Of a stretch of 64,000 bases of DNA, positions 4,110 through 37,149 are shown one piece after another. The translations under genes were made by a program, and so were the position numbers. The notes beneath the pieces were generated by a model. It ran no database searches. It saw only the letters and a list, made by a program, of their open reading frames with translations, and was not told the DNA's origin. The stretch is from Candidatus Doudnabacteria bacterium (GTDB lineage Bacteria > Patescibacteriota > JAQUNI01): contig JBAZQX010000005.1 in assembly GCA_041644975.1 (NCBI GenBank), positions 13,068 through 77,067 of the forward strand. The letters are read 5' to 3'. The first letter of the stretch is position 1, and each line of letters begins with the position of its first letter.

Positions 4110-4140
4110 AAAGCTTGCCCGACAGTAGAGCTCTGCTCTA

Positions 4141-9186: not shown

Positions 9187-9213
9187 TAGAGACAGGTTTT
9201 AAACCTGTCTCTA
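9186..9213. repeat. palindromic repeat family 1 (GTAGAGACAGGTTTTAAACCTGTCTCTA)
   Basis: Perfect hairpin. Its first base is the last base of the Nudix stop TAG. Confidence 0.85.
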
Positions 9214-9812: not shown

Positions 9813-12797
9813 TTATTTATTGCTTAATTTGGCGAATAAAAAAAATAAAGTAATAAACAGCAAGCCCATTAGAAACGGCGCTGATGATGAAATTAAATTC
9901 CGCTTGCCGGGCTTGAATCTTTTCAGTAAAAGAGAATTAGACACAACCGAAACCGAACTCAAAGCCATTGCCAGCCCGGCTAACTCCGGCTTTAAAATGA
10001 GTCCCGCCCAGGCCAACATTCGAGCCGCGATAGGAATACCAACAATATTATAAAACAAGGCGAAAAACATATTCTGCTTGATTTTAGACACTGTCGCGCG
10101 GCTTAAATCAATGGCTGTCAAAACACTTCTCAAATCGTTTTTAACAATAACAATACCGCCGGTTTCCATTGCCACATCAGCGCCCGAACCCATTGCCACG
10201 CCCAAATCCGCCTGCGCTAAGGCCGGAGCGTCATTGATGCCGTCGCCCACAAAAGCGACAGAACGCTTGCGCGGAGAATTTTTAATTTTTTCTCTGTAAT
10301 CTTCAATTCGTTTCCAATCCGTGATTTTTAATGACGACACCTTAACTCCTTTTTGCAAAAGTTCAACAACTATAGCCTTGTGTTGCGGCAAAACTTCGGC
10401 TAAAACATTTTTAATACCCGCTTGCTTGGCTATTGCCTCGGCGGTTCGGCGATTATCACCGGTAATCATAAAGGTTATTAAACCGCGCTTATGCAAGGCG
10501 CTCACCGTGTCTACGGCGCTTTCTTTAATAATGTCCGCCACTGCCACAATACCTAAAATTTCTTTGTCCGTTGACAAAATCATCGTTGTTTTTCCCTGCT
10601 CCTCCAAGCGCCGCGCTTTTCGTTCAATATTTTCCACATTTAACCCGACAACATCGGCCATTAGTTTGCGATTGCCAAAATAATATTTTTGCCCATCAAT
10701 TTCGCCTTCAACACCGTGTCCGGGAATAGCTCTAAAACCAGCCACCTCTTTTATAAGCGCGGATTCTTCTTGCGCGTATTTAACTATAGCTTCAGCCAAT
10801 GGATGCTCGGACATTTTTTCTAAACTGGCGGCTATGCCGAGCGCTTCATCTTCATCGCCAAACCCGATGCCAATTATATCAGTCACTTGGGGTTTGCCCT
10901 GAGTTAAAGTGCCAGTTTTATCAAAAACAATCATCTTTATTTTGCAGGCAGCTTCCAGCGGCTCGCCCCCTTTAATTAAAATCCCTTGCTCCGCTCCCTT
11001 ACCAGTCCCAACCATAATAGCGGTTGGAGTGGCTAATCCCAAGGCGCACGGGCAAGCGATCACAATCACAGCGGTAAAAGCCATCAAAGCAAAAGCCAAG
11101 TTTGAACCAAGCAGAAAAAACCAAACAAGAAAAGTCAAAACAGCGATACCAAGCACAATCGGCACAAAGCGACTGGAAATTTTATCCGCAAACATCTGAA
11201 TAGGCGCTTTGGAACCCTGGGCGTCTTCAATAAACCGGATAATTTGAGCTAAAGCGGTTTCTTTACCCACCCTGGTCGCTCTAAATTCAAAACTGCCGTG
11301 TTTATTCATAGTAGCGCCAATAACAACATCTCCGACATTTTTTTCCACTGGTATGCTTTCCCCGGTAAGCATTGATTCGTCCACTGAAGAATTGCCCTTG
11401 ACAATTTCGCCGTCAACCGGTATTTTTTCGCCAGGCCGAACCAACACTATGTCTCCCTTTACCACCTGCTCAATCGGAATATCTTCCTGCTTGCCGTCAC
11501 GAAAAACGCGGGCGGTTTTTGGCTGAAGGCCCATTAGTTTTTTAATGGCTTCAGAAGTTTTTCCCTTGGCTTTGGCTTCAAGCCATTTGCCCAAAAGCAC
11601 AAATGAAATTAGAAAAGCCGCTGTTTCAAAATATAAATCAGGTATTTTTTCCCCCATCAAACCAATTAAACTGCCCTTAGAAAAAACATAGCTAAGATAA
11701 GCGAACAAACTGTAAAAAAACGCCGCACTTGTACCAATGGCAATCAAACTGTCCATATTGAATGTTTTCATCCGCAAACTACTCCACGTTCCCTTGTAAA
11801 ACCCGAAACCAATAATGAATTGCACAGGTAAAGTCAAAAGCAAAGAAATAATGCCGATGTATGGCATAACCGCCTTGCCCGGCAAGAAAGGCAAAAATTC
11901 CAGAAGCATAAAATAAAACATCGGCAAGCTCAAGCCGAGTCCCCACAAAAACTTCTTCCAATAATTTTTTATTTCTTTAACTCTTCTTATTTTCTCCGCT
12001 TCAGGGTGGTCTGAACGGTATAGTTCCGCTCTATAACCCGCTTTTTTGACAACATCTAACAAAGCGGCTAAATTAGTCAGCGAACTGTCATAAATTACAC
12101 GCGCTCTGGCTGAAGCAAAATTGACATTGGCTGAAATAATCCCCGGCGCTTTCCGCAGGGCCTTTTCTATCAAGCCGGCGCAAGAAGAACAATGCATACC
12201 ATCTATACTTAATTGCGCTTGTTCTTCCTTTTTCTTAGCCGACAATGGAGGTGAAGCAACCGAAACCGCCTGGCTAGGATATAAAACCAAATCAGCGGCA
12301 TCTTGCTCCGAAGGGCCAAGCAAACGAAAAAGTTTGCCTATGTTGACGGAGCGCAAAAGATTATCCGCCAACTGCTCTATGTTTTTTTGGCCCTGTGGAA
12401 CTTCAATTTCTCCTCTGCGCTGGCGCTTGATTTTGCCTTGAAAATTCGGCTGATTGCCGCTATGACCAAAATTACCTTCTGCTTCCGTAGAGGACTCAAG
12501 CCGAATCTTCAAAGGCGAATTGCTGTCAATCTTTTTTTTTAGCCAAATTGAAGTTGATGATTCTCGCTGGATTTCTTTTGGCTCACGGCCTGTTATTTCC
12601 GCTTCGTAGCCGGCCTTCTTAACCGCCTCTATCAGTAAAGCGTCAGAAACATTTTCATCCGCTTTTACCTCTCCTTTACCCAAAGCGTAATCCACTTTGG
12701 CATATTTCACGCCAGTCAAAGAAGACAGTTCAGCCTCTACGAGTTTTTTGCAAGAAGCGCAATGCATGCCATGAATTTTCAGAATAATTTTTTGCAT
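9813..12797 (-). CDS. copA: copper-translocating P1B-type ATPase with two N-terminal HMA domains
   Basis: Two GMHCxSC metal-binding motifs. CPC in TM6, [15 protein letters not shown]. Confidence 0.9.
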
Positions 12798-21150: not shown

Positions 21151-21237
21151 TTTACCAAACTAACCTACCGAAACCCTGCAAACATTATCAAATTCAAAGA
21201 ACAAAAAAACCGGCTTAGTTAGCCGGTCTAGTTTCTA

Positions 21238-21268
21238 GTGTAAGACAGGTTTTAAACCTGTCTCTACT
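21238..21268. repeat. palindromic repeat family 1
   Basis: gtgtaagacaggttttaaacctgtctctac. Confidence 0.8.
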
Positions 21269-21405
21269 AAAAATCAGACCGGCGAAAGTCGGTTATAAAA
21301 CCAAAAACCAAAAAAGAAATTATTTTGTGAAATATTATTTTCCATAACTCTTAAGAAGCATTATAACTCACCATAAAATATTGTCAAGGACTTCTTTAAA
21401 TGAAA

Positions 21406-21563
21406 CTCCACGGGCTTAGCCTACTCCGCCGAAGTGGTCTTCGGCTGCGAAGGCCGGACACCCGTGGCATCTCTTTATAATAAAATTTCGTGGAGCGCCC
21501 ACCTGCTCACAAGCCTGCCCACCAGTCCGCCAAAGGCGGGCAGGCTTTCTGGTGCGTTGGGTC
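21406..21563. repeat. GC-rich structured intergenic element, copy 1 (candidate ncRNA)
   Basis: Shares the modules ctccacgg, gcttagcctactccgc, ttcggctgcgaaggccgg.cacccgtgg, catctctttataata..atttcg.ggagc and ctttctggtg.gttggg with 27181-27341, in a different order. Multiple nested GC stems. Confidence 0.45.
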
Positions 21564-23239: not shown

Positions 23240-23557
23240 ATTATACCTCCTATCACAAAATTTGATTAAGTAAAGAACCAAAAAAACAAAAACAAAAAAC
23301 TAGCCTTTCCCGGGCTAGATTTCTATTTTCTAATATTTGAAACCTTGAAAAAACCTAGCCCGCGAGTGGCAGCAACAAAACGCCCACCAACAATAAGGCT
23401 AGGTTTGAAATATTAAATTTTGCAAATGAATTTGGCATATTGACTAATTTAATTTTAGCAAACCCCAAATATCTGTCAAGACATTAAAAAAAAATGGCTC
23501 TTGATATCAATTACTTTGAATCAAGAGCCTAAGGTATCCGCTACATCTGTAGCGAAT

Positions 23558-24496
23558 TTATCGTCGTAACAGAGAACTCCAGTTCACATGGGTATAAAAA
23601 TCATCATGGTCTTCCTGGTCGCGATCGTCTCGGTTGCGACTATTATTTTGAACAATCTTTGAATAAGATCCCCCAGAACGGTTAATACTTTTTTGAATCC
23701 TATAGGCGGGCGGATCTTTCCGGAATACTCGTGTATTCTGTGGATTGCCGAGTTTAAAGTAACCGGTTTGAGCAAGATACTTCGCTGCTCGCTCAATTTG
23801 ATCAAACTTTGCCTCTTCGCCAATCCTACTAAGATATTCCTTAAACCCATTCATATTACATTCCTGAGAATAAGAGGCATAAGTAATAACAAGTCCTTTA
23901 TACTTCTCATCAAGCCCTACCATTGTTAGCGCTTGATTTATCGCTTCGCAAGAATTCCCTGTTAGCGCTTGACCTCCTGTTGCCTTGAAATAGTCTCTTA
24001 GTGTCGTTCCCGATCTTTGCGTCCTCACTATATTTGCTGTGCCAGATGAACCGGATGTACGTGCAATTTGATTTTTCCGCCTGACCTCTTGTATCTTGGC
24101 ATATACCGCGGCATCATTATATCTCTTCGCAAGATTATATTGTCCTTTTTCTAGAGCTTCCTGTTTTTTGGCAAAAAGGTCTTGCACTTTGGTAAGAGCC
24201 AAAAGCGATGTTTCAGTCGAATCAAGGCGTTTGTTTGCCTGCACAATGCTTGTTTCAAGACCTTTATTGAGAAGGCTTCGGCTATCCACATCTTTTTTGG
24301 CAGAATCAGCCATTTCTTTAATGGCTTTTTGCATCTCTATCTTCTCGGCTTTTAACTTGGCAATCTCTACTTCCAACTGAGCATCCTTTGCCTTTAAGGC
24401 CACTAGCTCAGCGTCGCTGATGCTTACCGCCTGAGCTTGGGCAGATAGCGTCAACGCTAAAACTATAATCAGCATAAACACAGTCCACTTTTTCAT
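23558..24496 (-). CDS. secreted coiled-coil protein with Cys-containing C-terminal domain
   Basis: Signal peptide MKKWTVFMLIIVLALTLSAQAQA, heptad-rich region, then an approximately 150 aa globular region. Confidence 0.5.
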   Translation of the reverse strand: MKKWTVFMLIIVLALTLSAQAQAVSISDAELVALKAKDAQLEVEIAKLKAEKIEMQKAIKEMADSAKKDVDSRSLLNKGLETSIVQANKRLDSTETSLLALTKVQDLFAKKQEALEKGQYNLAKRYNDAAVYAKIQEVRRKNQIARTSGSSGTANIVRTQRSGTTLRDYFKATGGQALTGNSCEAINQALTMVGLDEKYKGLVITYASYSQECNMNGFKEYLSRIGEEAKFDQIERAAKYLAQTGYFKLGNPQNTRVFRKDPPAYRIQKSINRSGGSYSKIVQNNSRNRDDRDQEDHDDFYTHVNWSSLLRR

Positions 24497-24497
24497 T

Positions 24498-25031
24498 TCA
24501 TTTACCTCCATTCAGCTTTTTGAGAATTTCGTTAATCTCTTTTGATTGATTCTCCACAGCTTTGGCATAACCATTTACACTTGACCAATAATCCACGACG
24601 GGTTCGGCCACAGGTGCTTCTCCTGTGGCGCTAACAAAAGAGTCGCTTTCAACAGTAACTTCCTGTTCATCTTGAGTTGCGGTTTCCGTTGCAATTTCAT
24701 CGTCCTGTTCCGCCTCACCACTATAATGTTTTGCTGTCTTCCGAATAGGTTTCGGACGCTCGGACACAACGGTTTCTTCATAAGAAGTTTGTTGTTGCGC
24801 CGCCGGCTTTATAGTTGATTGTGCGGTTGTTGCCAGTGCGGCTGATTGTGTGGCAGGTTTCGCAATCACATTTGACCTTTCATCCTCAGTGTATTGATTG
24901 AAAAAATGCCATCCTACAAGCGCCAAAATGACAAGCGCCACAACAATGATTACCACGCCCGGTACGCCACGAAGCCAAATGAGCCAATCAAGTCGGTACG
25001 GCGAGCCGTCTAAAATGTTCTTTCCTTTCAT
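24498..25031 (-). CDS. single-pass membrane protein with acidic C-terminal region
   Basis: N-terminal TM; acidic, disordered C-terminus. Abuts its neighbours. Confidence 0.5.
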   Translation of the reverse strand: MKGKNILDGSPYRLDWLIWLRGVPGVVIIVVALVILALVGWHFFNQYTEDERSNVIAKPATQSAALATTAQSTIKPAAQQQTSYEETVVSERPKPIRKTAKHYSGEAEQDDEIATETATQDEQEVTVESDSFVSATGEAPVAEPVVDYWSSVNGYAKAVENQSKEINEILKKLNGGK

Positions 25032-26203
25032 TTCGTTTCCTCCTTTTTGTTTTCTTTTTCGTCCAGTATTTTCCCTTCTCCTTCTATAACAGTTTCAGGT
25101 TTCCCTTGTCCCCCCGTTAAGGTGCTAACAAATCTCTCAATGCTCGTCGCTTTTAATCCCCTAATCTCTCCTTCCATTATGCCCGTTTGGCGAGAACCAA
25201 GTATTGAAAGGAATTCTTCATAAATTTTCAATTCTTTTCCGCGTTGAGCTATCTCCAATTGCAATTCTTTTCCGCGTTGAGCTATCTCCAATTCCGCCAG
25301 TTTCGTCTTAAGCTCAAATACCATTTCAGGGAACGCTGCCATTTGCCCAGCGTCAGTAGCCAATATTTCCGCCAACGCCTTAAGCGCGATGTTTTTGGCT
25401 TCTGCTATTTTTGCTTCAAGCGGTATTTGTTTTTGCATTCTCTCAAATCCAAGCTCCATCCTATCTCTTTCTTGCTTCAATTCAAACTCGCCTTGTTTCT
25501 GTGCTTTCTCAAACCCAAGTTGCATCTTGCCTCGTTCTTGTTCCCATTCAAACTCGTTGCGGGTGCCTTGAGCTTCCAAGGTATGCGCCAGTTGCGCCCT
25601 CTCCGCCACCCTACCAAGTTCATCTTTCTCCTGTTTTTCAAACCAAATAGCGATTTCTTTCTCCTCGGGCTGTATCTCCTCGCTAATTGTTAAATCATCC
25701 ACTGCAAAACAAGATTGGGTCCTCGCTAATATTGTGGTCAATCTCTCTTTGGCGTCTTTAAGAAATATTCCGTTTACTGTTTTAATCTCTCGCCAAGTAT
25801 ATGCAAGAATCCCATCTCGGAGAGCGGATGAAACAGAACTGACCAACAAGGACTCTTCTGTTTGAGCATTAACAACTATTCTTTTAATACTTTCTTCGCT
25901 ATCATTCACCTTTGCCTGCGCGTTGACAATGCCTATTAAGGCAATGCCGTCTTTTGTACTCACAGTGCCTTTCAGTGGTACAGAAATTTGCTTGGGTGTC
26001 ATATCCACAAAAGCAATTCCATCGCACTGACCTCTACGAGCACGTTTAGAAGGTATAGTATAATATTCCCCTTTCTCTACCTGGGGTAGCACCCTAATCG
26101 GATTACCATCATTACTAACAGTAACAGCCCGTAACTGGGCTGTTGGAATAACAGGTTCCAACCATTTCGCTTCCCTTAAAAAAACCCACCTATCATCAGC
26201 CAT
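25028..26203 (-). CDS. SPFH/flotillin-like protein with repetitive coiled-coil C-terminus
   Basis: N-terminal approximately 200 aa resembles a band-7/SPFH domain. C-terminal Glu/Ala/Lys/Gln-rich repeats, including a perfect 33-bp tandem duplication at 25229-25294. Confidence 0.45.
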   Translation of the reverse strand: MADDRWVFLREAKWLEPVIPTAQLRAVTVSNDGNPIRVLPQVEKGEYYTIPSKRARRGQCDGIAFVDMTPKQISVPLKGTVSTKDGIALIGIVNAQAKVNDSEESIKRIVVNAQTEESLLVSSVSSALRDGILAYTWREIKTVNGIFLKDAKERLTTILARTQSCFAVDDLTISEEIQPEEKEIAIWFEKQEKDELGRVAERAQLAHTLEAQGTRNEFEWEQERGKMQLGFEKAQKQGEFELKQERDRMELGFERMQKQIPLEAKIAEAKNIALKALAEILATDAGQMAAFPEMVFELKTKLAELEIAQRGKELQLEIAQRGKELKIYEEFLSILGSRQTGIMEGEIRGLKATSIERFVSTLTGGQGKPETVIEGEGKILDEKENKKEETK

Positions 26204-26500
26204 CCCTAATCACTCCTTCCCTTCCTGAAAGTATATTTCAGATTTTACCACGGTTCCTATATTTATCACTTTAATAAACCTAAGTTCATTTAAACAAACA
26301 AATCAACAACCTCATCACTGAAACACTATATAACTAAACTAAGTTGACAAAGACCCTAGTGAAAAAACAACCCTATAAACCTTAAAATCTTATTGAGTTA
26401 TATATATCACCTTTTGACAAAACAGTCAAGAATTAGCTAAAAAAGCGGGGCTTTATTTCCGCTTCTATATCTCTATATTCCATTTATATATTAGATGAGA

Positions 26501-27118
26501 TCACGCAAACATCACATCATCCTCTGCTCGCTTATAATCAAGGATTTCTTCGGGTGCAAACCAGTGTTCAATTTCATGCGCCGCTTCGGCGGGATCGCCC
26601 GAAGCGTGAACGATGTTGTGGATTGCCCGCTGGTCAATGTTCGCCGCTGTGTTGGTATCAATAGAATAGTCGCCGCGGATTGTTCCCGGCTGGGCTAAAA
26701 TCGGTAAAGTATGACCCACTAATTTTCGCACCGTGGAAATGGCGTGCATCCCTTTTAAAATCATCGCCACCACTGGCGCCATAGACAAATAACTCACATT
26801 CCATTTCTGGACAAGTTTGCCGATCTCCAAAGAATCATCGGTGCCCATTTTTTCTTTGACATTCATCCCATACTCTTTAAAGGCGTCAATCGTTTTTTGA
26901 CCCATCCCGCGGAGCCATTCTTCCGAGCCTGAATAATGCTTTTCCACATGCTCTCTTGTTGGCCAAACCATCTTCAGGGCAATGACTTTGAGCCCCCGCT
27001 TTTCAAAGCGGGAAATAATCTCGCCGACTAAGCCCCGCACTACGGCATCGGGTTTAACAATCACGACCGTGCGCTCTTGGCTCGGATGATCAGCGCTAAT
27101 CTTATTTTTCTCTTCCAT
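26501..27118 (-). CDS. ndk: nucleoside diphosphate kinase (with insertion)
   Basis: TVVIVKPDAV and NIVHASG (active-site His). Confidence 0.8.
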   Translation of the reverse strand: MEEKNKISADHPSQERTVVIVKPDAVVRGLVGEIISRFEKRGLKVIALKMVWPTREHVEKHYSGSEEWLRGMGQKTIDAFKEYGMNVKEKMGTDDSLEIGKLVQKWNVSYLSMAPVVAMILKGMHAISTVRKLVGHTLPILAQPGTIRGDYSIDTNTAANIDQRAIHNIVHASGDPAEAAHEIEHWFAPEEILDYKRAEDDVMFA

Positions 27119-27180
27119 AATTTTAGAAAATTTAATAATTCATCTTTTTAAATTCTAGCATAAAAACTACGAAAAGTGAA

Positions 27181-27341
27181 GCTCCACGGACTCACGCCCG
27201 TGGCATCTCTTTATAATAGGATTTCGCGGAGCAAAACCCCTCACCAGAAAGCCACCATTCATCCACGGGTTTAGCCTACTCCGCTTAAAGCAGCCTTCGG
27301 CTGCGAAGGCCGGGCACCCGTGGCTTTCTGGTGAGTTGGGC
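27181..27341. repeat. GC-rich structured intergenic element, copy 2 (candidate ncRNA)
   Basis: Same modules as 21406-21563, permuted. Includes the 9+ bp stem accagaaag/ctttctggt and the UUCG tetraloop hairpin gcagccttcggctgc. Flanked by the direct repeat AATAATTCATC. Confidence 0.45.
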
Positions 27342-27720
27342 AAAATAAAAAAAATTAGAGGGTATTATGAACGAATAATTCATCCCCTCTCTATCTAGCC
27401 ATCTTATAGCCTACTTCCTAATCTCTATGGTTTTGACCATCCACAAAACCATATCCCCGAAAAATTTTACGGATTGATTAGGACACTTGTTATAGATGGC
27501 GAGTGCTAGAAGCCGCGGCAGCAACAGCGATGGTATTACCGCGCCCACGACCAACAAGAGGACTAACATTCTACCACCCCCAATACTAAGACACTAATGA
27601 ATAACCGGTCGAATTATACTTGTATTATAAAGTGTAAAATTTAATAAATCAATAATTATATTAATTTTAAATTTTAAATCAAATCTTAATTTTTAATTTT
27701 AAAACAGTCGAGTTTTAAAA

Positions 27721-28554: not shown

Positions 28555-28701
28555 GAATTAGGAATAATGAATCCCCGCACCAAGCCCCCGCTAACGCTCG
28601 GCTGGTACAGGGCAAGCAAGAATCAGGAATGAGCCCCTCCGAAACCTCTCCCCCTACAAAGGGGAGGAACTCCCTGATTCATAATTCCTGCTTCCTAATT
28701 C
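28555..28701. repeat. GC-rich core (28574-28672) flanked by inverted repeats GAATTAGGAATAATGAATC / GATTCATAATTCCTGCTTCCTAATTC
   Basis: Inverted repeats are visible. Internal hairpin ctcccc ctacaaa ggggag. Shares the 9-mer ccccgcacc with element 30204-30302. Confidence 0.6.
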
Positions 28702-30190: not shown

Positions 30191-30203
30191 AATCTAAACA
30201 AAA

Positions 30204-30302
30204 TTCATAATTCCTGCCTGCCCGCCGACCTGTCCGCAGAAGTCCGCCTTTGGCGGACGAAGGAGGAAGCCTTGGCATAGGCGGACCTGCCCCGCACCGA
30301 AT
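30204..30302. repeat. GC-rich structured element upstream of comEC
   Basis: attcataattcctgc, then gtccgc...gcggac and ccgcctttggcgg hairpins, ending in ccccgcacc. Confidence 0.5.
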
Positions 30303-32792
30303 TTATTCTGGTGACGGGGCTTCCATTTCAGGCTGAAGCTGCTCCAGAGTCTTCGCTTCCACTTCCGCGCGCTCCCTGCCGTATTTCAAGCGCGATAAAT
30401 TTTTTATTTTTCGCGCCAAATCGCGGTCAGGCTTTTGCTCGGGCGATAAGGTCTGCATACTAAAAGCTTTGGAAGGCGTATTATTGATAGTAAGTTTCAG
30501 ATAGGTTTGGAATTGGCCAAGATTGATTAAATCATGGGCGGAAAAAACCGGCTCGGTTTGTTTTTCCACAAACTCGGCGTCATTGGGTCCGATCCGAAAA
30601 GAAGCAAGACTGCCGACATTGCCAAAAACCGCGTCGCGAATCTGTTCCGGAAGCTGGGCGATATATTGATTGGCGAGAGTTAAATTCAGGCGGTATTTGC
30701 GGGCTTCGGACAAAATCGTCATAATACTGTCCGTAGTGAAATTTTGGAACTCATCAATATAAAGATAAAAATCGCGCCGCTCTTCCTCGGGGATATCCAC
30801 CCGCCCCATTGCCGCCATCTGGATTTTAGAAACAATAATCAAACCGAGAAGCGAAGAATTGATCTCGCCGGTTTTGCCTTTAGACAGATTAACGAGCAAA
30901 ATTTTGCCGGAGTCCATAATCTCGCGGAGATTGAAGGCGGAGCGCTGCTGGCCGATAATATTGCGCATCATTGTGTTCTCCACAAACTGCCCGATCTTGG
31001 AAATCAAATAGCCCAACATCTCGGATTTATGAAAATCCGTGGTCTTCGCCATTTCCTTCTCCCAAAAATCGCGCACCACCGTATCCGTCACTTTCGCGAT
31101 CTTGTATTTTTGATATTCCGGATCAGTGAACATCCGCGGAATCTCGGTAATCGTCCCAGGATTTTCCGGATCCGCCATCAAGGTCAGCATCACATTGCGC
31201 ATATTATGCTCAAACATCGGGCCCACAATCTCCGGTGGAAAAAGCTTATGGAAAATGGCAATCATCTCAGAGACGACAAAGTCCTTCTGTTCGGGCGTAT
31301 TATATTCCAGCATATTAAGCCCCAAGGGGCGGTCAATATCTCCCGGGTCAAAAAGCACGACCTCTTCCGCTCTGTTTCTCGGTATAAGGCCTAATAATTC
31401 TTCAATAAGTTCGCCATGGGGATCCACCACGCAAACGCCCTCGCCACTTTGCAAATCCTGCGCCACCATATTTTTAAGCAAAGTGGTTTTGCCCGTCCCG
31501 GTCTGACCAATAACATACAAATGACGGCGCCGATCTTCTCTTTGAATCCGCACCAGTCTCTCCACGCCCCGAAAAACATTCTTGCCAATCACAATCCCTT
31601 CTTGAGGCAGATTGGCGGGCGCCTCGCCCTTCTTGGCAGTAAGCCATTTCACTTCCGGCGTTTCGGTGTAAGCCGTAGGCAAATGGAAAATGCTCGCCAG
31701 CTCCTCGGTGTTTAAAATACTCGCTTTTTCCTCATCAAAAAAACGAAAATTAAAATTGGTAATCGTTTTTTTGGCGCTCCACTTTTTATTTTTATCCGGC
31801 TTGAAACTATTATATTCGGGATAAGTAAACTGCTGAAAAGCGTTGATTAAATTGGACAATTTAATCTCGGCTTGCTCGCGCGTGGGACTCGCGGCCGCCA
31901 GACGAATATTGGTCCGAAAAGCGACCTTGTTCGCTTTCTCTTCCAAAAGCTTTACCGTTTCCTGCTGCAGGGGGGTTAAGGAAGGCGGCGCTTCAATCTG
32001 CTTTTCCCCTTCCACTTCCGGCGCTCTTTTCTTCTTCTCGGCTCCTTGAACCGCTGTCATCACCACCTCGCCGGCAAAATGCGCCATCTTGCCTGCCACG
32101 CTCTTCGCGCCCACCGCCTCCGCGGTTTTCACGCCCTGCTGAATCTTGCGCGCCGCGGAAAGACCCTTGGTCTGCCAGCCTTTGGGAGCGGGACGAATCA
32201 TCACCTCTATACCCCCTCCTTCTTGATCTCCCATCTTGCTCAAAGCGTTAGCAAGAGCCGAGAGAGGGTCATTTTCCAAATATTTATAAGTTTTAATTGG
32301 AAAAACATTTTCGCGCGACAAAACCATATTCGTCGCGAGCACCACGCTCTCGGGAGTATAAAAATTGTATTCCTTCACCTCTTCCAGTTCGGCTTTGGGA
32401 TAAGCCGCCTGGATTTGTTTTTCCACGAGCCCCACCAAATTATTCGGACAGCAAACGTAAAAACTTGTTTCATTATGATGCGCCACAATTTCCAAAGAAA
32501 CAAAATCTTTTTCCTCCCAAAGCTTGGCTTTTTTCACACGATTGAGTTGCGCGAAGCCGGCGAATACCTGCTCCGCCACCGCGATCAACTCCTTCTCTTC
32601 CTGTTTTTCCTCTTTCTCCCCCTTGCCGATTTCTTTCGGCACCCGAATTGAAAACAAAGTTGTTTGGAAAGCCTTAGGCACCTTGGATTTCTTGCGCTGG
32701 TTTAAAATCAAAAAATAAGCAATCAAGATAAGCAATAAAATAAAAAGTATCCCACATAAAAGATAGATGATGGAAAGATTAGTTTCATTCAT
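30303..32792 (-). CDS. TrwB/TraD/VirD4-like coupling-protein-family ATPase (FtsK/HerA superfamily) with N-terminal TM and approximately 400 aa extra domain
   Basis: Walker A GQTGTGKT followed by VVDPHGE (TrwB: GATGTGKS...VDPNGD). YIDEFQNF Walker-B region and LTLANQ. Confidence 0.65.
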   Translation of the reverse strand: MNETNLSIIYLLCGILFILLLILIAYFLILNQRKKSKVPKAFQTTLFSIRVPKEIGKGEKEEKQEEKELIAVAEQVFAGFAQLNRVKKAKLWEEKDFVSLEIVAHHNETSFYVCCPNNLVGLVEKQIQAAYPKAELEEVKEYNFYTPESVVLATNMVLSRENVFPIKTYKYLENDPLSALANALSKMGDQEGGGIEVMIRPAPKGWQTKGLSAARKIQQGVKTAEAVGAKSVAGKMAHFAGEVVMTAVQGAEKKKRAPEVEGEKQIEAPPSLTPLQQETVKLLEEKANKVAFRTNIRLAAASPTREQAEIKLSNLINAFQQFTYPEYNSFKPDKNKKWSAKKTITNFNFRFFDEEKASILNTEELASIFHLPTAYTETPEVKWLTAKKGEAPANLPQEGIVIGKNVFRGVERLVRIQREDRRRHLYVIGQTGTGKTTLLKNMVAQDLQSGEGVCVVDPHGELIEELLGLIPRNRAEEVVLFDPGDIDRPLGLNMLEYNTPEQKDFVVSEMIAIFHKLFPPEIVGPMFEHNMRNVMLTLMADPENPGTITEIPRMFTDPEYQKYKIAKVTDTVVRDFWEKEMAKTTDFHKSEMLGYLISKIGQFVENTMMRNIIGQQRSAFNLREIMDSGKILLVNLSKGKTGEINSSLLGLIIVSKIQMAAMGRVDIPEEERRDFYLYIDEFQNFTTDSIMTILSEARKYRLNLTLANQYIAQLPEQIRDAVFGNVGSLASFRIGPNDAEFVEKQTEPVFSAHDLINLGQFQTYLKLTINNTPSKAFSMQTLSPEQKPDRDLARKIKNLSRLKYGRERAEVEAKTLEQLQPEMEAPSPE

Positions 32793-34262: not shown

Positions 34263-34401
34263 AAAAATTCTTTAATAACCCTAAGCTCTTGCCAACTTTA
34301 AAATTAATCAAACAAGCGCCTCCTATTCCAAGTTTTCTTACTATTTTATTCCGTCCGCTTTCAGCAGGACGAAGTTAGCTTCCAGCGTGACGCAGTCCGC
34401 T

Positions 34402-34741
34402 TTAATCCACAGGCACAACTCTTTTGCCTTGAATCATAAAGTCTATGATCACTTTGCCGTGGTCGCCAAGACCTGTCCACTCGTCGTCGTTATCCCAGGA
34501 ATACTGCGCCCAGGTCTCATTGCATTTCCCGCCACGAACAAGATAATTCATCCGAATTCGTTTATTTTTTGGCAGCTTGCTTAAGGGAATGTTTGCGACA
34601 TAGCCTTGATTCGACCAATCCATTTTCCAAGTATAATTCCAGCGATCAGGGTCGCCGGTAATCACGACCGTTTCGCCGCGTCGGGGCTGCGGAATAAAAA
34701 CCCAGCACAAAAATCCCCGCACACATAATTAGCTTTTTCAT
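34402..34741 (-). pseudogene. secreted small protein apparently split by a frameshift between signal peptide and mature domain
   Basis: ATG at 34741 gives MKKLIMCAGIFVLGFYSAAPTR and then stops. The main ORF (GTG start) continues in the +1 frame from RRGETVVITGDPDRW. Confidence 0.35.
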
Positions 34742-34813
34742 AGATTTTTTGAATCTGTTTTTTTGAATTTTAGAGATTAGTCTCATAATATTCTTGGTTT
34801 AAGATTTTTAAAA

Positions 34814-36478
34814 TTAATTCCGCGGCTGACTGGATAAATTAATTCTTGCGCTCTTTTGCGTTAGAAATAAGCGCGCTAATCTTAATTCTTGATAAGAAAA
34901 ATCTTTGCCTAATATTTCACGCACCGGCTTTAAATACATCTCCCCAGTTTGTTGGAAAGCAATCTTGATAATTTCAAAACGGCTCTCCGGCAATTTTAAA
35001 TAATCTAAGCTCATTTCCTTAATTTTATTATTTTGCGCTAGCTTTTCTAAATGACTCACAATAGTCTCTTGTTTCAAACCGCGTCTTGAAGCAATCTCTT
35101 CCAACGACAATCTTTCCACCACCAACATTCTGGTTTTCTCGTAAGTTGAAAGATGGTCTTTATTCTCTTTTTTAATATCCTCTTCAATCTCATCATCTTT
35201 CAATTTCATCCTTTGGTTTATTTCTTCCCTTAAAGAAACCATCACCTCTTGCGACATCTGCCTTAAATTTTTATCCAAGCTTAAAACTTCCTTATTCACT
35301 TGAAGCGCTAGATCATTAATCCCTAACAATTTGAGGCAGTCAAAAGATCGCACCCGCGAAAGAGCGACATAGCCCATCCCTTCTACAAAAGATTTGGAAA
35401 GGTCAACCTCTGCCGCGTCTAAGGTCATACCTTGGCTTTTATGCACCGTGATTGCCCAGGCCAAGCGCAAGGGCAATTGATAAATTGCCGCTCTTTCCCT
35501 CCCATCTTCTTCAATGGTCCAACTCGCCGGCAAGGCAATTACTATTTTACCTGCGCAAGTTTTAATGATCGGAAACTTATGTTCATCAAAGCCAATTATT
35601 TTCCCCAACGTTCCATTCACATATCCCTTCTCAAAATTATTTTTCACAAACATCACTTTCGCGCCCTTTTTTAGTCTTAACCGCTCCGGCGCGAGGCACC
35701 CTATTTGCAAAGCTTGCACTAACTTTTTCGGACCACTTCCCCGCATTGAATAGGCAAACTCCTTCCCCGGAATCTTGGCTAACTCCATATTATTAATCAC
35801 GTCCACATCCGCGTTATGAGTATAAAGCTTGGGCGGCGATAAAGAAAAAACTGTTTTTCCAAGCTGCTTGCTGGATAATATTTTATGCGATTCTTTTAAA
35901 TTATTATCACGAATATGTCCGAGCAAAGAAAGAAGGTCAACGTCCTTGTGGCGATGTTGTTCTTCCAAATAGCAAACCTTAATGTCCATCCTTGGCCAGA
36001 CATCGGATTCCGTAATGAATTTAGCGGCTTTTCCCCTATTTTGCACAGGCGGCAACTGAAAAAAATCGCCCGAACAAATAACCTGCATACCGCCAAAAGG
36101 TTCATCATTCTCTTTGAACACCCGACAAATTTGATCTACCAAATCAAATTGAAAGCCATGCAGCATTGAAATCTCATCAATAATCAAAATTTCTGTTTTG
36201 CGAAAATGCTTAATTAAATATGGTCTTCTCAAAAGATCCTCCAAATCCCTTTCACCTAATTTTTCTTTAATGCCCAAGCCAGACCAAGAATGAATAGTAA
36301 CGCCATTCATATGGGTAGCGGCAATCCCAGTGGAAGCGGTAACCGCAACGCTCTTCCCGTGTTTTTTTAAATATTGGATAAATTGATTCAATAAAAAAGT
36401 CTTGCCTGACCCCGGCGGCCCGGTCAACAGCGCGTTGTAGCCTAATTTTAAGATCGCGATCGCTTCTGCTTGAATCAT
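34814..36478 (-). CDS. PIF1/RecD-family 5'-3' DNA helicase with C-terminal HTH domain
   Basis: Walker A GPPGSGKT, IIDEISM (Walker B), QLPPV motif. The C-terminal approximately 100 aa is HTH-like. Confidence 0.75.
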   Translation of the reverse strand: MIQAEAIAILKLGYNALLTGPPGSGKTFLLNQFIQYLKKHGKSVAVTASTGIAATHMNGVTIHSWSGLGIKEKLGERDLEDLLRRPYLIKHFRKTEILIIDEISMLHGFQFDLVDQICRVFKENDEPFGGMQVICSGDFFQLPPVQNRGKAAKFITESDVWPRMDIKVCYLEEQHRHKDVDLLSLLGHIRDNNLKESHKILSSKQLGKTVFSLSPPKLYTHNADVDVINNMELAKIPGKEFAYSMRGSGPKKLVQALQIGCLAPERLRLKKGAKVMFVKNNFEKGYVNGTLGKIIGFDEHKFPIIKTCAGKIVIALPASWTIEEDGRERAAIYQLPLRLAWAITVHKSQGMTLDAAEVDLSKSFVEGMGYVALSRVRSFDCLKLLGINDLALQVNKEVLSLDKNLRQMSQEVMVSLREEINQRMKLKDDEIEEDIKKENKDHLSTYEKTRMLVVERLSLEEIASRRGLKQETIVSHLEKLAQNNKIKEMSLDYLKLPESRFEIIKIAFQQTGEMYLKPVREILGKDFSYQELRLARLFLTQKSARINLSSQPRN

Positions 36479-37063: not shown

Positions 37064-37149
37064 AAACCACTTTTCGTCATTGCGAGGAAAGCCGGCCTTA
37101 AAGACGGCTGACGAAGCAATCTCATTAAATTATAAGGTTGACGATAAAT

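What the first reader, a model, noticed from the sequence alone, without database searches (positions are those of the whole stretch)
27181..27341. GC-rich structured element family, copy 2, flanked by AATAATTCATC direct repeats
This is the permuted homologue of 21406-21563. It contains a long closing stem (tcaccagaaagccac ... gtggctttctggtga) enclosing nested hairpins, including a UUCG tetraloop, an architecture typical of stable RNAs. It is flanked on both sides by AATAATTCATC, which could be target-site-duplication-like. So it may be a small non-autonomous mobile element that is also transcribed.
Basis: seen in the sequence. Interest (0 to 1): 0.6.

Follow-up and report, generated by a model that had tools for sequence, protein, structure and literature searches.

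The report
Small hairpin-rich mobile DNA insertion
This 164-base GC-rich stretch is a recent, clean insertion of a small gene-less mobile DNA element from a previously undescribed family in ultra-small (Patescibacteria) bacteria, one that also sits in frame inside essential genes, much like the palindromic elements of Rickettsia.

Summary
The sequence features are real, but the proposed target-site duplication is not. Window 27177-27340 (copy 2) and 21401-21561 (copy 1) are two members of one element family.

Evidence for mobility:
- Copy 2 is absent, with base-precise boundaries and no duplication, from the same site in about ten related genomes.
- Copy 1 is absent from the closest relative but present in a more distant one.
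- AATAATTCATC lies 33-43 bases outside the true ends and is already present in empty sites.
- A metagenome scan and covariance models found 13 more insertion sites in Patescibacteria contigs. Three are in frame inside genes (lepA, nrdG, a TrwB-like gene).

Structure and target:
- Members share a four-helix fold supported by compensatory changes.
- Each has two mutually similar hairpins, one near each end, in direct orientation.
- They prefer AAAG|TAAA sites.
- The "permutation" is a roughly 47-base hairpin extension that sits on the left hairpin in copy 1 and the right hairpin in copy 2.

There was no match in Rfam, plasmids, phages or the literature searched. The best reading is a non-autonomous selfish element. 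It is probably moved as single-stranded DNA by a tyrosine HUH transposase (IS200/IS605-like), but no transposase is linked to it. Whether it is transcribed was not tested.

The parts
27177..27340 (+). Copy 2, the whole element (164 nt; a 1-nt G ambiguity at the junction). It is inserted between ...CGAAAAG and CAAAAT...
   Evidence: Absent with exact boundaries in L061, L063, L102 and L094-L101. Matches the family covariance models at 78.6 and 72.8 bits.
27181..27232 (+). Domain A. Helix P1 is GCUCC (27181-27185) paired with GGAGC (27228-27232). It encloses hairpin P2 (CACGG 27185-27189 / CCGUG 27198-27202) and a single-stranded CU/AU-rich joiner (27203-27227). The joiner overlaps the 21-mer CCGTGGCATCTCTTTATAATA that is shared exactly with copy 1.
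   Evidence: Fold. P1 and P2 are supported by compensatory changes across the family.
27237..27255 (+). 5' strand of the long closing helix P3 (CCC-CUCACCAGAAAGCCAC).
   Evidence: Pairs with 27320-27340. Across the family P3 is 100% paired, with 4 pairs changed on both sides. These include G-C to U-A in this copy.
27253..27264 (+). Conserved unpaired motif CACCAUUCAUCC, immediately 5' of hairpin P4.
   Evidence: Invariant or nearly invariant in all full-length family members.
27264..27323 (+). Hairpin P4 (CCACGGG...CCCGUGG). It carries the roughly 47-nt extension that sits on P2 in copy 1, and includes the GCAGCC-UUC-GGCUGC tip.
   Evidence: BLAST finds 63 nt at 87% identity to 21407-21468. 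The stem is the same as that of P2 in this copy and the same as P2 and P4 of L071.
27320..27340 (+). 3' strand of P3 and the right terminus, GUGGCUUUCUGGUGAGUUGGG.
   Evidence: This is the most conserved block of the family. It was the pattern that retrieved the metagenome members.
21401..21561 (+). Copy 1 of the same family (161-162 nt), inserted between ...CTTTAA(A) and TCAAAT...
   Evidence: Absent with exact boundaries in L061. An orthologous copy with different hairpin caps is present in L102. Covariance model score 71 bits.
30217..30320 (-). Probable degenerate third relative. This GC-rich segment replaces 26 nt at the 3' end of the TrwB/DUF87-like gene. It shares GCCTGCCCGCC and TTTGGCGGAC with the cap of copy 1 and has a GGAAGCCCCG...CGGGGC start.
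   Evidence: It is not detected by the covariance models, so the assignment is tentative.
27134..27144 (+). Left AATAATTCATC. This is flanking host sequence, not part of the element.
   Evidence: Identical in the empty sites of L061, L063 and L102.
27374..27384 (+). Right AATAATTCATC. This is host sequence inside the terminator-like hairpin of the upstream minus-strand gene.
   Evidence: Present as AAAAATTCATC in the empty site of L061. The hairpin GAGAGGGG...CCCTCT followed by a T-run was read on the minus strand.
27152..27180 (-). Promoter-like site for ndk, TTCACT-17-(TG)TAGAAT. Its -35 hexamer is built from the last 4 bases of the element (TTCA on the minus strand) plus 2 flank bases.
   Evidence: The empty sites have TTTGCT at this position. 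Any effect on expression is inferred, not shown.

Best explanation
**What it is.** Window 27177-27340 is a recently inserted copy of a small (126-164 nt), gene-less, GC-rich selfish mobile DNA element. The family lives in Patescibacteria (candidate phyla radiation) genomes.

**Shown here.**
- The element enters, and apparently also leaves, DNA with base precision and makes no target-site duplication.
- It prefers AT-rich sites of the form AAAG|TAAA.
- It lands in intergenic spacers and, when its length is a multiple of three, in frame inside genes.
- It keeps a four-helix single-strand fold. P1 and P3 bring the two termini together, and P2 and P4 are two similar hairpins near the two ends, in direct orientation.

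**Inferred mechanism (about 35-40% likely on its own).** The element is mobilised in trans as single-stranded DNA by a tyrosine HUH transposase. This would be the 'peel-and-paste' route of IS200/IS605 elements and their protein-less derivatives (PATEs). The two end-proximal hairpins would be the transposase binding sites, and the conserved flank tetranucleotide would be the target motif.

**At this locus.** Copy 2 sits between the terminator of the upstream minus-strand gene and the ndk promoter, and it rebuilds that promoter's -35 box. No host function is implied.
For: **Gain and loss at orthologous sites**
- Copy 2 is missing, with adjacent flanks joined exactly, in L061 and L063 (92-95% identical relatives), in L102, and in L094-L101. 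It is present only in the window and in L064.
- Copy 1 is missing in L061 (L061 positions 4609/4610 are adjacent). It is present at the same site in the more distant L102, with different hairpin caps.

**A multi-copy family with unrelated flanks**
- Eleven metagenome sites were retrieved with the right-end pattern.
- Two divergent copies were found in L076 and one in L102 by covariance model.

**In-frame copies inside genes**
- lepA in L070, between the G domain and domain II.
- nrdG in L077/L091, as an exact 42-residue insertion into a protein that is 229 aa in nearly all of the 120 listed homologues.
- The 3' end of a TrwB-like gene in L076.

**No duplication and a biased target**
- Flank positions -3 to -1 are A, A, G in 10-11 of 13 sites. 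Position +1 is T in 11 of 14 sites and positions +2 to +4 are A in 8-13 of 14.

**Conserved fold**
- 94.9% of cells are paired and 16 of 33 pairs change on both sides. None of 500 shuffles reached this, and slid controls gave 37-48%.
- The covariance model built on this fold scores the divergent copies higher than the RNAalifold-structure model (54.6 and 48.9 against 34.8 and 33.9 bits).

**Similarity of P2 and P4**
- The two hairpins are alike within an element and differ between subfamilies. In L071 they read CCACGAC-UUUACA-GUCGUGG and CCACGGC-UUCACA-GCCGUGG. In Ga0265296 and L088 they are of the CCGCC...GGCGG type. In window copy 2 both are CCACGG(G)...CCCGUGG.
- IS608 has subterminal hairpins 19 nt and 10 nt from its cleavage sites and makes no duplication (PMC3201880). 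Here the distances are 17 nt and 7 nt.
- Protein-less IS200/IS605 derivatives (PATEs) are documented (PMC10055086).

**Signs of a selfish element**
- Hairpins in many copies are decaying, with 11 A-C mismatches in P4. This is expected for selfish DNA, not for a host RNA.
- One host contig carries a Y1 HUH gene (Pfam Y1_Tnp 28.4 bits, cut-off 23).
Against: - No transposase has been linked to the family. None is encoded in the 64-kb window. No full-length element with the same ends was found.
- The one Y1 gene seen (L090) is flanked by its own, different palindromes (GAAGTCCGACTTC) and is RAYT-like.
- The IS608 rule that four bases 5' of each hairpin pair with the cleavage site is only partly satisfied. 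Two of three canonical pairs fit if the minus strand is the active strand. This is my reading of the sequences against PMC3201880.
- Both flanks are conserved, whereas IS200/IS605 elements need only the 5' motif.
- The active strand is unresolved. G-U against A-C counts favour the plus strand in P3 (3:0) and the minus strand in P2/P4 (15:9).
- The long-range helices P1 and P3 and the invariant unpaired motif CACCAUUCAUCC have no known role in IS200/IS605 ends.
- Orientation relative to neighbouring genes is not consistent across copies.
Confidence: 0.7

Rival explanations
1. The element is an IS200/IS605-type PATE whose conserved fold is an omega-RNA-like guide-RNA scaffold. The plus-strand RNA would end at GGUGCGUUGGG and read into the flank as a guide. 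A TnpB or IscB nuclease encoded elsewhere would use it to restore excised copies.
For: - PATEs 'often encode omega RNAs' that must be used in trans (PMC10055086).
- The fold is conserved with compensatory changes, and P3 has only G-U departures on the plus strand.
- The 3' strand of P3 abuts the flank directly.
- The 5' flank motif AAAG could serve as a transposon-adjacent motif.
Against: - No tnpB or iscB is present in any held locus.
- There is no Rfam match to any described RNA.
- With the plus strand as the active strand, the left hairpin lies only 7 nt from the cleavage site.
- P2 and P4 are decaying in many copies.
Confidence: 0.1
2. The element is a host-serving structured RNA. It would be either a small RNA gene or a cis-regulatory leader for ndk and the GCS2-like gene, and it happens to be duplicated.
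For: - It is GC-rich in an AT-rich genome and folds strongly.
- Its structure is conserved.
- Both window copies lie just upstream, in the minus sense, of promoter-like sites.
Against: - It is absent from the same sites in relatives that are 92-95% identical and keep intact genes and promoters.
- It is found inside coding sequences of unrelated genes, and its neighbours differ at every site.
- No promoter plus terminator of its own was found.
- It lies upstream of, not within, the predicted ndk transcript.
- There is no Rfam match.
Confidence: 0.06
3. The element is removed at the RNA level. It would be a very small self-splicing intron, or one otherwise excised or bypassed, that spreads by reverse splicing or retrohoming, so that insertions in genes are harmless.
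For: - Helices P1 and P3 bring the two element boundaries together, separated only by a 4-nt purine linker.
- All four copies inside genes are in the sense orientation.
- Unpaired motifs are invariant.
- Gain and loss are seamless.
Against: - At 126 nt it is far below the size of any known self-splicing intron.
- It has no group I or group II hallmarks. The 5' flank ends in G rather than U, there is no GUGYG...AY, and there is no Rfam intron match.
- Copies inside genes are all multiples of three in length and open in the host frame. This is required only if they are translated.
- No reverse transcriptase is nearby.
- Several intergenic copies are antisense to their neighbours.
Confidence: 0.05
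4. The element is a classical MITE. It would be a deletion derivative of a DDE-transposase insertion sequence, with terminal inverted repeats and AATAATTCATC as its target-site duplication.
For: It is small, lacks an ORF, occurs in multiple copies, and has a flanking 11-mer direct repeat.
Against: - The 11-mer is present in empty sites and lies 33-43 nt outside the boundaries.
- There is no duplication at any of 14 sites.
- The termini TGGAGCC... and ...GCGTTGGG are not inverted repeats.
Confidence: 0.02
5. The element is not actively mobile. The presence/absence pattern would reflect homologous recombination among strains that exchange intergenic alleles, or deletion between microhomologies, of an old repeated sequence.
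For: - These bacteria carry competence genes (ComEC, DprA).
- The region 23.5-26.5 kb is replaced wholesale between strains.
- Hairpin caps differ between orthologous copies.
Against: - The boundaries are identical to the family termini at two independent loci, with no flanking microhomology.
- Fifteen sites share the same termini and the same AAAG|TAAA context.
- There are exact 42- and 43-codon insertions in conserved genes.
Confidence: 0.05

Closest known systems
Rickettsia palindromic elements (RPEs)
   Same: Both are roughly 100-150-nt elements with no ORF that are rich in hairpins and live in a small AT-rich genome. Both are scattered in intergenic DNA and inserted in frame inside protein-coding genes. 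Neither has an identified transposase. The RPE description rests on established knowledge; PMC1779305 and PMC10969869 were retrieved by the search but were not read.
   Different: The host phylum is different and I recognise no sequence relationship (no direct sequence comparison with RPEs was run). This family is not a simple palindrome. It has two domains, asymmetric termini, two direct-repeat hairpins and a defined AAAG|TAAA target. Clean empty sites are documented here.
IS200/IS605 insertion sequences and their protein-less derivatives (PATEs)
   Same: Both lack a target-site duplication and terminal inverted repeats. Both have asymmetric ends with a similar hairpin near each end in direct orientation (17 and 7 nt from the ends here; 19 and 10 nt in IS608, PMC3201880). 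Both have a conserved tetranucleotide next to one end and excise seamlessly. Non-autonomous gene-less versions are known (PMC10055086).
   Different: No tnpA, tnpB or parent element is linked to this family. Guide-to-cleavage-site pairing is only partly satisfied. Both flanks are conserved. Long-range helices and invariant unpaired motifs are additional. At 126 nt the element is much smaller than the PATEs first described in Haloquadratum (size from my recollection of PMC3119063, which was listed but not read).
REP / REPIN elements mobilised by RAYT (TnpA-REP)
   Same: Both are GC-rich extragenic hairpins with no duplication, thought to be moved by a domesticated Y1 HUH protein (PMC8266576, from its abstract). 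A RAYT-like gene exists in one carrier contig.
   Different: REPs are 20-40 nt and REPINs are inverted doublets. The hairpins here are direct repeats within a 126-nt unit. The RAYT-like gene has its own distinct palindromes. REPs are extragenic, whereas this family also sits inside genes.
Mitochondrial GC clusters and 'byp' elements of yeasts
   Same: Both are short GC-rich structured insertions that spread in very AT-rich genomes, including into coding regions. This comparison rests on established knowledge only and was not tested.
   Different: Those elements are eukaryotic organellar sequences, much shorter, and in the byp case skipped by ribosomes. Nothing here indicates translational bypassing.

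Membership tests
MITE (DDE-type miniature inverted-repeat element) | Terminal inverted repeats | tested here: not met
   The termini TG(G/A)AGC(C/T)CC... and ...CUGGUGCGUUGGG are not reverse complements of each other.
MITE (DDE-type miniature inverted-repeat element) | Target-site duplication flanking each copy | tested here: not met
   Alignments of filled against empty sites show no duplicated base. The flanks of 14 sites differ left from right.
MITE (DDE-type miniature inverted-repeat element) | Small, non-coding, multi-copy | tested here: met
   The elements are 126-164 nt and 15 sites are known. No consistent ORF exists, because frames differ between copies.
IS200/IS605-derived non-autonomous element (PATE) | Insertion and excision without duplication or loss of bases | tested here: met
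IS200/IS605-derived non-autonomous element (PATE) | Similar subterminal hairpins at both ends, on the same strand | tested here: met
   P2 and P4 resemble each other within an element and co-vary between subfamilies. In window copy 1 the two differ.
IS200/IS605-derived non-autonomous element (PATE) | Conserved tetranucleotide target motif 5' of the left end | tested here: inconclusive
   AAAG on the plus strand and TTTA on the minus strand are both conserved. Which one is the 5' motif depends on the unresolved active strand.
IS200/IS605-derived non-autonomous element (PATE) | Guide bases 5' of each hairpin pair with the cleavage sites | tested here: inconclusive
   With the minus strand active, the guide is AAAG (the IS608 left guide, as I recall it) against TTTA at the left end, and GGUG or GAKG against TCCA or TTCA at the right end. 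Two of three canonical pairs fit. This is a reading against PMC3201880.
IS200/IS605-derived non-autonomous element (PATE) | Ends shared with a tnpA- or tnpB-bearing element in the same genome | not testable with these tools
   Only contig fragments are held, and collection scans for DNA patterns are exhausted. No such gene is present in 0.3 Mb of held loci.
RPE-like in-frame selfish DNA | Copies inserted in frame within conserved protein-coding genes | tested here: met
   lepA; nrdG, 229 aa plus 42 aa; TrwB-like gene, 43 codons.
RPE-like in-frame selfish DNA | Sequence homology to Rickettsia RPE families | not tested
   No RPE sequences were available for comparison. Nothing in plasmid or phage collections matches.
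REP / REPIN (RAYT-mobilised) | 20-40-nt palindrome units, as inverted doublets, flanking a RAYT gene | tested here: not met
   The hairpins are direct repeats within a 126-nt unit. The RAYT-like gene in L090 is flanked by a different palindrome.
Any described RNA family (Rfam 15) | Covariance-model match at or near the gathering score | tested here: not met
   No gathering-level match in the window. Nothing relevant at E up to 10 on the two window copies or up to 5 on five metagenome members.
Group I / group II self-splicing introns | Conserved core (P3-P8 with U before the 5' splice site; or GUGYG...AY with domain V) | tested here: not met
   The element is 126 nt and its 5' flank ends in G. 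The termini are UGGAGC...UUGGG. There is no Rfam intron match.

The most novel reading that the evidence does not exclude
The conserved four-helix fold, which brings the two insertion boundaries together, would be an RNA machine rather than a DNA transposition signal. The element would be a 126-nt mobile intron-like ribozyme (or an RNA that is otherwise excised). It would remove itself from lepA, nrdG and other mRNAs and spread by reverse splicing. That would make it by far the smallest self-splicing element known.
Probability: 0.05. Interest if true: 0.95.

Novelty: new member of a known kind. Interest (0 to 1): 0.5.

Why it matters
- Patescibacteria have tiny, streamlined genomes and are thought to carry few mobile elements. 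This family shows that they host an active, very compact selfish element.
- The element inserts with base precision and can sit inside essential genes without destroying them, as the RPEs do in Rickettsia. The way RPEs move has not been established.
- Clean filled and empty site pairs, a defined target (AAAG|TAAA) and a covarying fold make the transposition mechanism directly testable.
- If the mechanism is HUH-type, this would be one of the smallest single-strand transposons and a natural minimal substrate.
- In practice, such insertions shift gene lengths, create spurious ORFs and can mimic structured non-coding RNAs in GC-rich-intergenic-region screens of AT-rich genomes.

Tried and rejected
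**Searches that found nothing useful**
- Rfam at gathering and permissive thresholds gave nothing relevant. No tRNA or tmRNA was found.
- Exact-pattern scans with the shared AU-rich block (16-, 18- and 21-mers) gave only chance hits or none in the viral, genome and metagenome collections.
- The hairpin-extension pattern and the right-end pattern gave only chance hits in viral contigs.
- Searching the protein database with spurious ORFs of the element found nothing for the window copy. It found only the two already-known contigs for the canonical copy.
- BLAST of a canonical copy against plasmids and phages gave no match.
- A regular-expression search for Y1 transposase motifs in all held loci found none.

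**Ideas rejected**
- A small peptide gene starting at the A/GTG at the left end was rejected. The start base is flank in copy 2, and the frames diverge after six codons.
- The RNAalifold consensus (three local hairpins plus CCAAC/GUUGG) was rejected in favour of the P1/P3 fold. The latter is kept through compensatory changes in the divergent subfamily and scores it about 20 bits higher.
- Orientation bias relative to replication or to neighbouring genes was inconsistent between contigs.
- G-U against A-C counts did not resolve the active strand.
- Literature searches found no description of such elements in Patescibacteria.

Full report
**1. The observation**

The segment exists and is not chance.
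- Window 27178-27345 folds at -70.7 kcal/mol (z = -4.7 against dinucleotide shuffles) on the plus strand, and about as well on the minus strand.
- It shares exact blocks with 21403-21563: CCGTGGCATCTCTTTATAATA, CTTCGGCTGCGAAGGCCGG and TTAGCCTACTCCGC. Chance expectation is 0 to 0.3. Only these two copies occur in the window.
- AATAATTCATC occurs at 27134 and 27374.
- The 'UUCG tetraloop' is not one. The register is GCAGCC-UUC-GGCUGC.

**2. Host and setting**

- Neighbouring genes are ordinary chromosomal genes: ndk, a metallo-beta-lactamase-fold protein, ComEC, FtsZ/FtsA, HisRS, DprA and ParB. No transposase or reverse transcriptase is present.
- NCBI names identical proteins as 'Candidatus Doudnabacteria bacterium' and 'Patescibacteria group bacterium'.
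- The window is about 40% GC and the element about 57-60% GC.

**3. Empty sites**

Looking up the Ndk protein retrieved the source contig and relatives.
- In L061 (GCA_028717685.1, 90-95% identical DNA) and L063, both copies are missing with exact boundaries.
 - Copy 2: the empty site reads ...CAAAAAG|CAAAAT... and the filled site reads ...CGAAAAG|TGAAGCTCC...GAGTTGGG|CAAAAT...
 - Copy 1: the empty site reads ...CTCTTTAA|TCAAATC... and the filled site reads ...TTTAA(A)|TGAAACTCC...GCGTTGGG|TCAAATC....
- No base is duplicated.
- The AATAATTCATC repeats are present in the empty site and lie 33-43 nt outside the junctions, so they are not a target-site duplication.
- Nine more related contigs (L094-L102) also lack copy 2. 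Only the window and L064 carry it, so it is a recent gain.
- Copy 1 is present at the same site in L102, with both hairpin caps replaced by other sequence. Yet it is absent from L061, which is the closer relative in three of the four flanking regions compared and about equal in ndk. This implies either a seamless loss or a repeated hit on the same site.

**4. The family**

- Patterns from the AU-rich block found nothing in the collections.
- The right-end pattern GGCTTTCTGGTGMGTTGGG retrieved eleven genuine members from metagenomes (ten distinct insertion sites). Six come from JGI 3300028032, which appears to be the sample that yielded the window's ENA assembly. One comes from a 0.1-um groundwater fraction.
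- Covariance models added two divergent copies in L076 and the L102 copy.
- Canonical members are 126-129 nt. Their layout is: TG(G/A)AGC, helix P1, hairpin P2, a variable CU-rich joiner, P1', a purine linker, (A)CCCCGCACCGAAAGCC, a variable stretch, CACCAUUCAUCC, hairpin P4, and GGCUUUCUGGUGCGUUGGG.
- The fold P1+P2 / P3+P4 is kept by compensatory changes.
 - 94.9% of cells are paired and 16 of 33 pairs change on both sides. None of 500 shuffles reached this, and slid controls gave 37-48%. The alignment was fitted to the model, which is a caveat.
 - P3 alone changes G-C to U-A in window copy 2, and changes A-U to G-C and G-C to A-U in the L076 subfamily.
 - A competing RNAalifold fold is not conserved in the divergent copies.

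**5. What the 'permutation' is**

- P2 and P4 are versions of the same hairpin.
 - L071 has CCACGAC-UUUACA-GUCGUGG and CCACGGC-UUCACA-GCCGUGG.
 - Ga0265296 and L088 have CCGCCGAC-GGGA-GUCGGCGG and CCGCCAGC-AGGA-GCUGGCGG.
 - In window copy 2 both stems are CCACGG(G)/CCCGUGG.
- The roughly 47-nt extension sits on P2 in copy 1 and on P4 in copy 2. L102 carries yet other caps. The L076 subfamily has a comparable extension (CCACGGGCAAGCC...) on domain A.
- Hairpin tips are therefore the fast-changing part, and the two window copies are co-linear apart from them.

**6. Where copies land**

- Flanks are biased to AAAG|element|TAAA.
- Three copies are inside genes, in frame and in the sense orientation.
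 - lepA, between the G domain and domain II.
 - nrdG, where the protein is 271 aa against 229 aa in nearly all of the 120 listed homologues. The alignment shows one exact 42-residue insertion.
 - The 3' end of a TrwB-like gene, 43 codons.
- The window's own TrwB/DUF87-like gene ends in a GC-rich segment (30217-30320) that shares pieces with copy 1 and is probably a decayed relative.
- The 126-nt subfamily is open in two or three plus-strand frames, against about 0.35 expected per frame. This is only suggestive, because the copies are related.
- Intergenic copies have no consistent orientation.

**7. Mechanism**

*Shown:* precise gain, apparent precise loss, no duplication, no terminal inverted repeats, target bias, and a conserved single-strand fold with twin direct hairpins near the ends.

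*Inferred:*
- These are the hallmarks of IS200/IS605 single-strand 'peel-and-paste' transposition. In IS608, TnpA binds subterminal hairpins 19 and 10 nt from the cleavage sites and inserts 3' of a tetranucleotide without gain or loss of bases (PMC3201880). Here the distances are 17 and 7 nt if the minus strand is the active strand.
- Protein-less derivatives (PATEs) exist and are moved in trans (PMC10055086).
- One carrier contig encodes a Y1 HUH protein. It looks like a RAYT with its own palindromes, so it shows only that such enzymes occur in these genomes.

*Weak points:*
- No linked transposase has been found.
- The fit to the IS608 guide rule is only partial.
- Both flanks are conserved.
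- The active strand is unresolved.
- Helices P1 and P3 and the invariant CACCAUUCAUCC are unexplained.

I put the selfish mobile element reading at about 0.85, and the HUH route at about 0.35-0.4 by itself.

**8. Rivals**

- *Host RNA (small RNA or riboswitch).* This is contradicted by absence in near-identical relatives, by presence inside unrelated coding sequences, by decaying hairpins, and by location upstream of the ndk promoter rather than in its transcript.
- *Classical MITE.* This is refuted by the empty sites.
- *Intron-like RNA element.* This is not excluded, since the ends are brought together and the genic copies are all sense. It is unlikely at 126 nt with no intron hallmarks, and genic copies are multiples of three and open in frame.
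- *Omega-RNA-bearing PATE.* This is possible but no TnpB was seen.

**9. Local consequences (inferred)**

- Copy 2 lies directly after the T-run of the terminator-like hairpin of the upstream minus-strand gene.
- Its last four bases (TTCA on the minus strand) form part of a TTCACT-17-TGnTAGAAT promoter-like site for ndk. Empty sites have TTTGCT.
- Copy 1 ends 15 nt upstream of a perfect TTGACA-16-TATAAT on the minus strand.

**10. Verdict**

- The mobility idea is right, for reasons other than those given.
- The target-site duplication is wrong.
- Transcription is untested.
- The family appears undescribed: no match in Rfam, plasmids, phages or the literature searched.
- It belongs to a known kind of thing, namely small hairpin-rich non-autonomous selfish elements of the RPE and PATE sort.

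Noticed in passing
window 30217-30320 (minus-strand sense): A GC-rich segment of about 100 nt replaces 26 nt of L061 at the 3' end of the TrwB/DUF87-like gene and changes its C-terminus. It shares GCCTGCCCGCC and TTTGGCGGAC with the cap of copy 1. It is probably a decayed family member. L076 has a family copy at the 3' end of a comparable TrwB-like gene.
   Followed up: partly
window 28574-28617: A 44-nt GC-rich insertion (CCCGCACCAAGCCCCCGCTAACGCTCGGCTGGTACAGGGCAAGC) relative to L061, between the metallo-beta-lactamase-fold gene and ComEC. It shares CCCCGCACC with the 30.2-kb segment.
   Followed up: partly
window 34269-34861: A 593-nt insertion relative to L061. It contains a minus-strand ORF that appears to encode a small signal-peptide-bearing protein. 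The flanks are otherwise 93-94% identical.
   Followed up: no
window 7687, 9188, 9296, 33986 (and a variant at 21238): A recurrent palindrome, AGAGAC-N-GTCTCT, often written GTAGAGAC...GTCTCTAC, where 0 are expected by chance. The copies at 9188 and 21238 share AGACAGGTTTTAAACCTGTCTCT. It looks like a REP-like or terminator-like repeat family.
   Followed up: partly
window 21200-21387, minus strand: A perfect sigma-70-type promoter (TTGACA-16-TATAAT at 21387-21360) is followed by about 150 nt of hairpins and a terminator-like hairpin with a T-run (21229-21207). This lies upstream of the GCS2-like gene and could be a small RNA or a leader/attenuator. It is conserved in L061 and L102.
   Followed up: no
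window 37078-37121; L061 (reverse complement) about 11040-11165: A palindromic element with the motif CATTGCGAGGA...GACGAAGCAATC. L061 carries a longer related insertion upstream of its metallo-beta-lactamase-fold gene that the window lacks. This is a second, unrelated small insertion family in these genomes.
   Followed up: partly
L090 6092-6754 (minus); same gene at L093 7643-8305: A 221-aa Y1 HUH protein. It scores 28.4 bits on Pfam Y1_Tnp, and its best NCBIfam match is REP-associated tyrosine transposase, below the cut-off. It is flanked by the palindrome TTGAAGTCCGACTTCAA, and two more copies lie inside its own coding sequence. The same palindrome occurs in L076 and L089.
   Followed up: partly
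L102 about 4130-4140 (the empty site of copy 2): The empty site reads AAAAG-TGAAAT, whereas the window flanks and L061 read AAAAG-CAAAAT. The two changed bases equal the first two bases of the element (TG). This may be an excision footprint or a coincidence.
   Followed up: no
window 23480-26504: A block of three genes (an SPFH/Band-7-like protein and two proteins with no Pfam match) is replaced by unrelated genes in L061, L094 and L102. This is a strain-variable island between conserved flanks.
   Followed up: no
window 28677-28690 and 30203-30216: The 14-mer ATTCATAATTCCTG is repeated on both sides of ComEC. Each copy lies next to one of the GC-rich insertions, and the sequence resembles the AATAATTCATC motif. 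Its significance is unknown.
   Followed up: no
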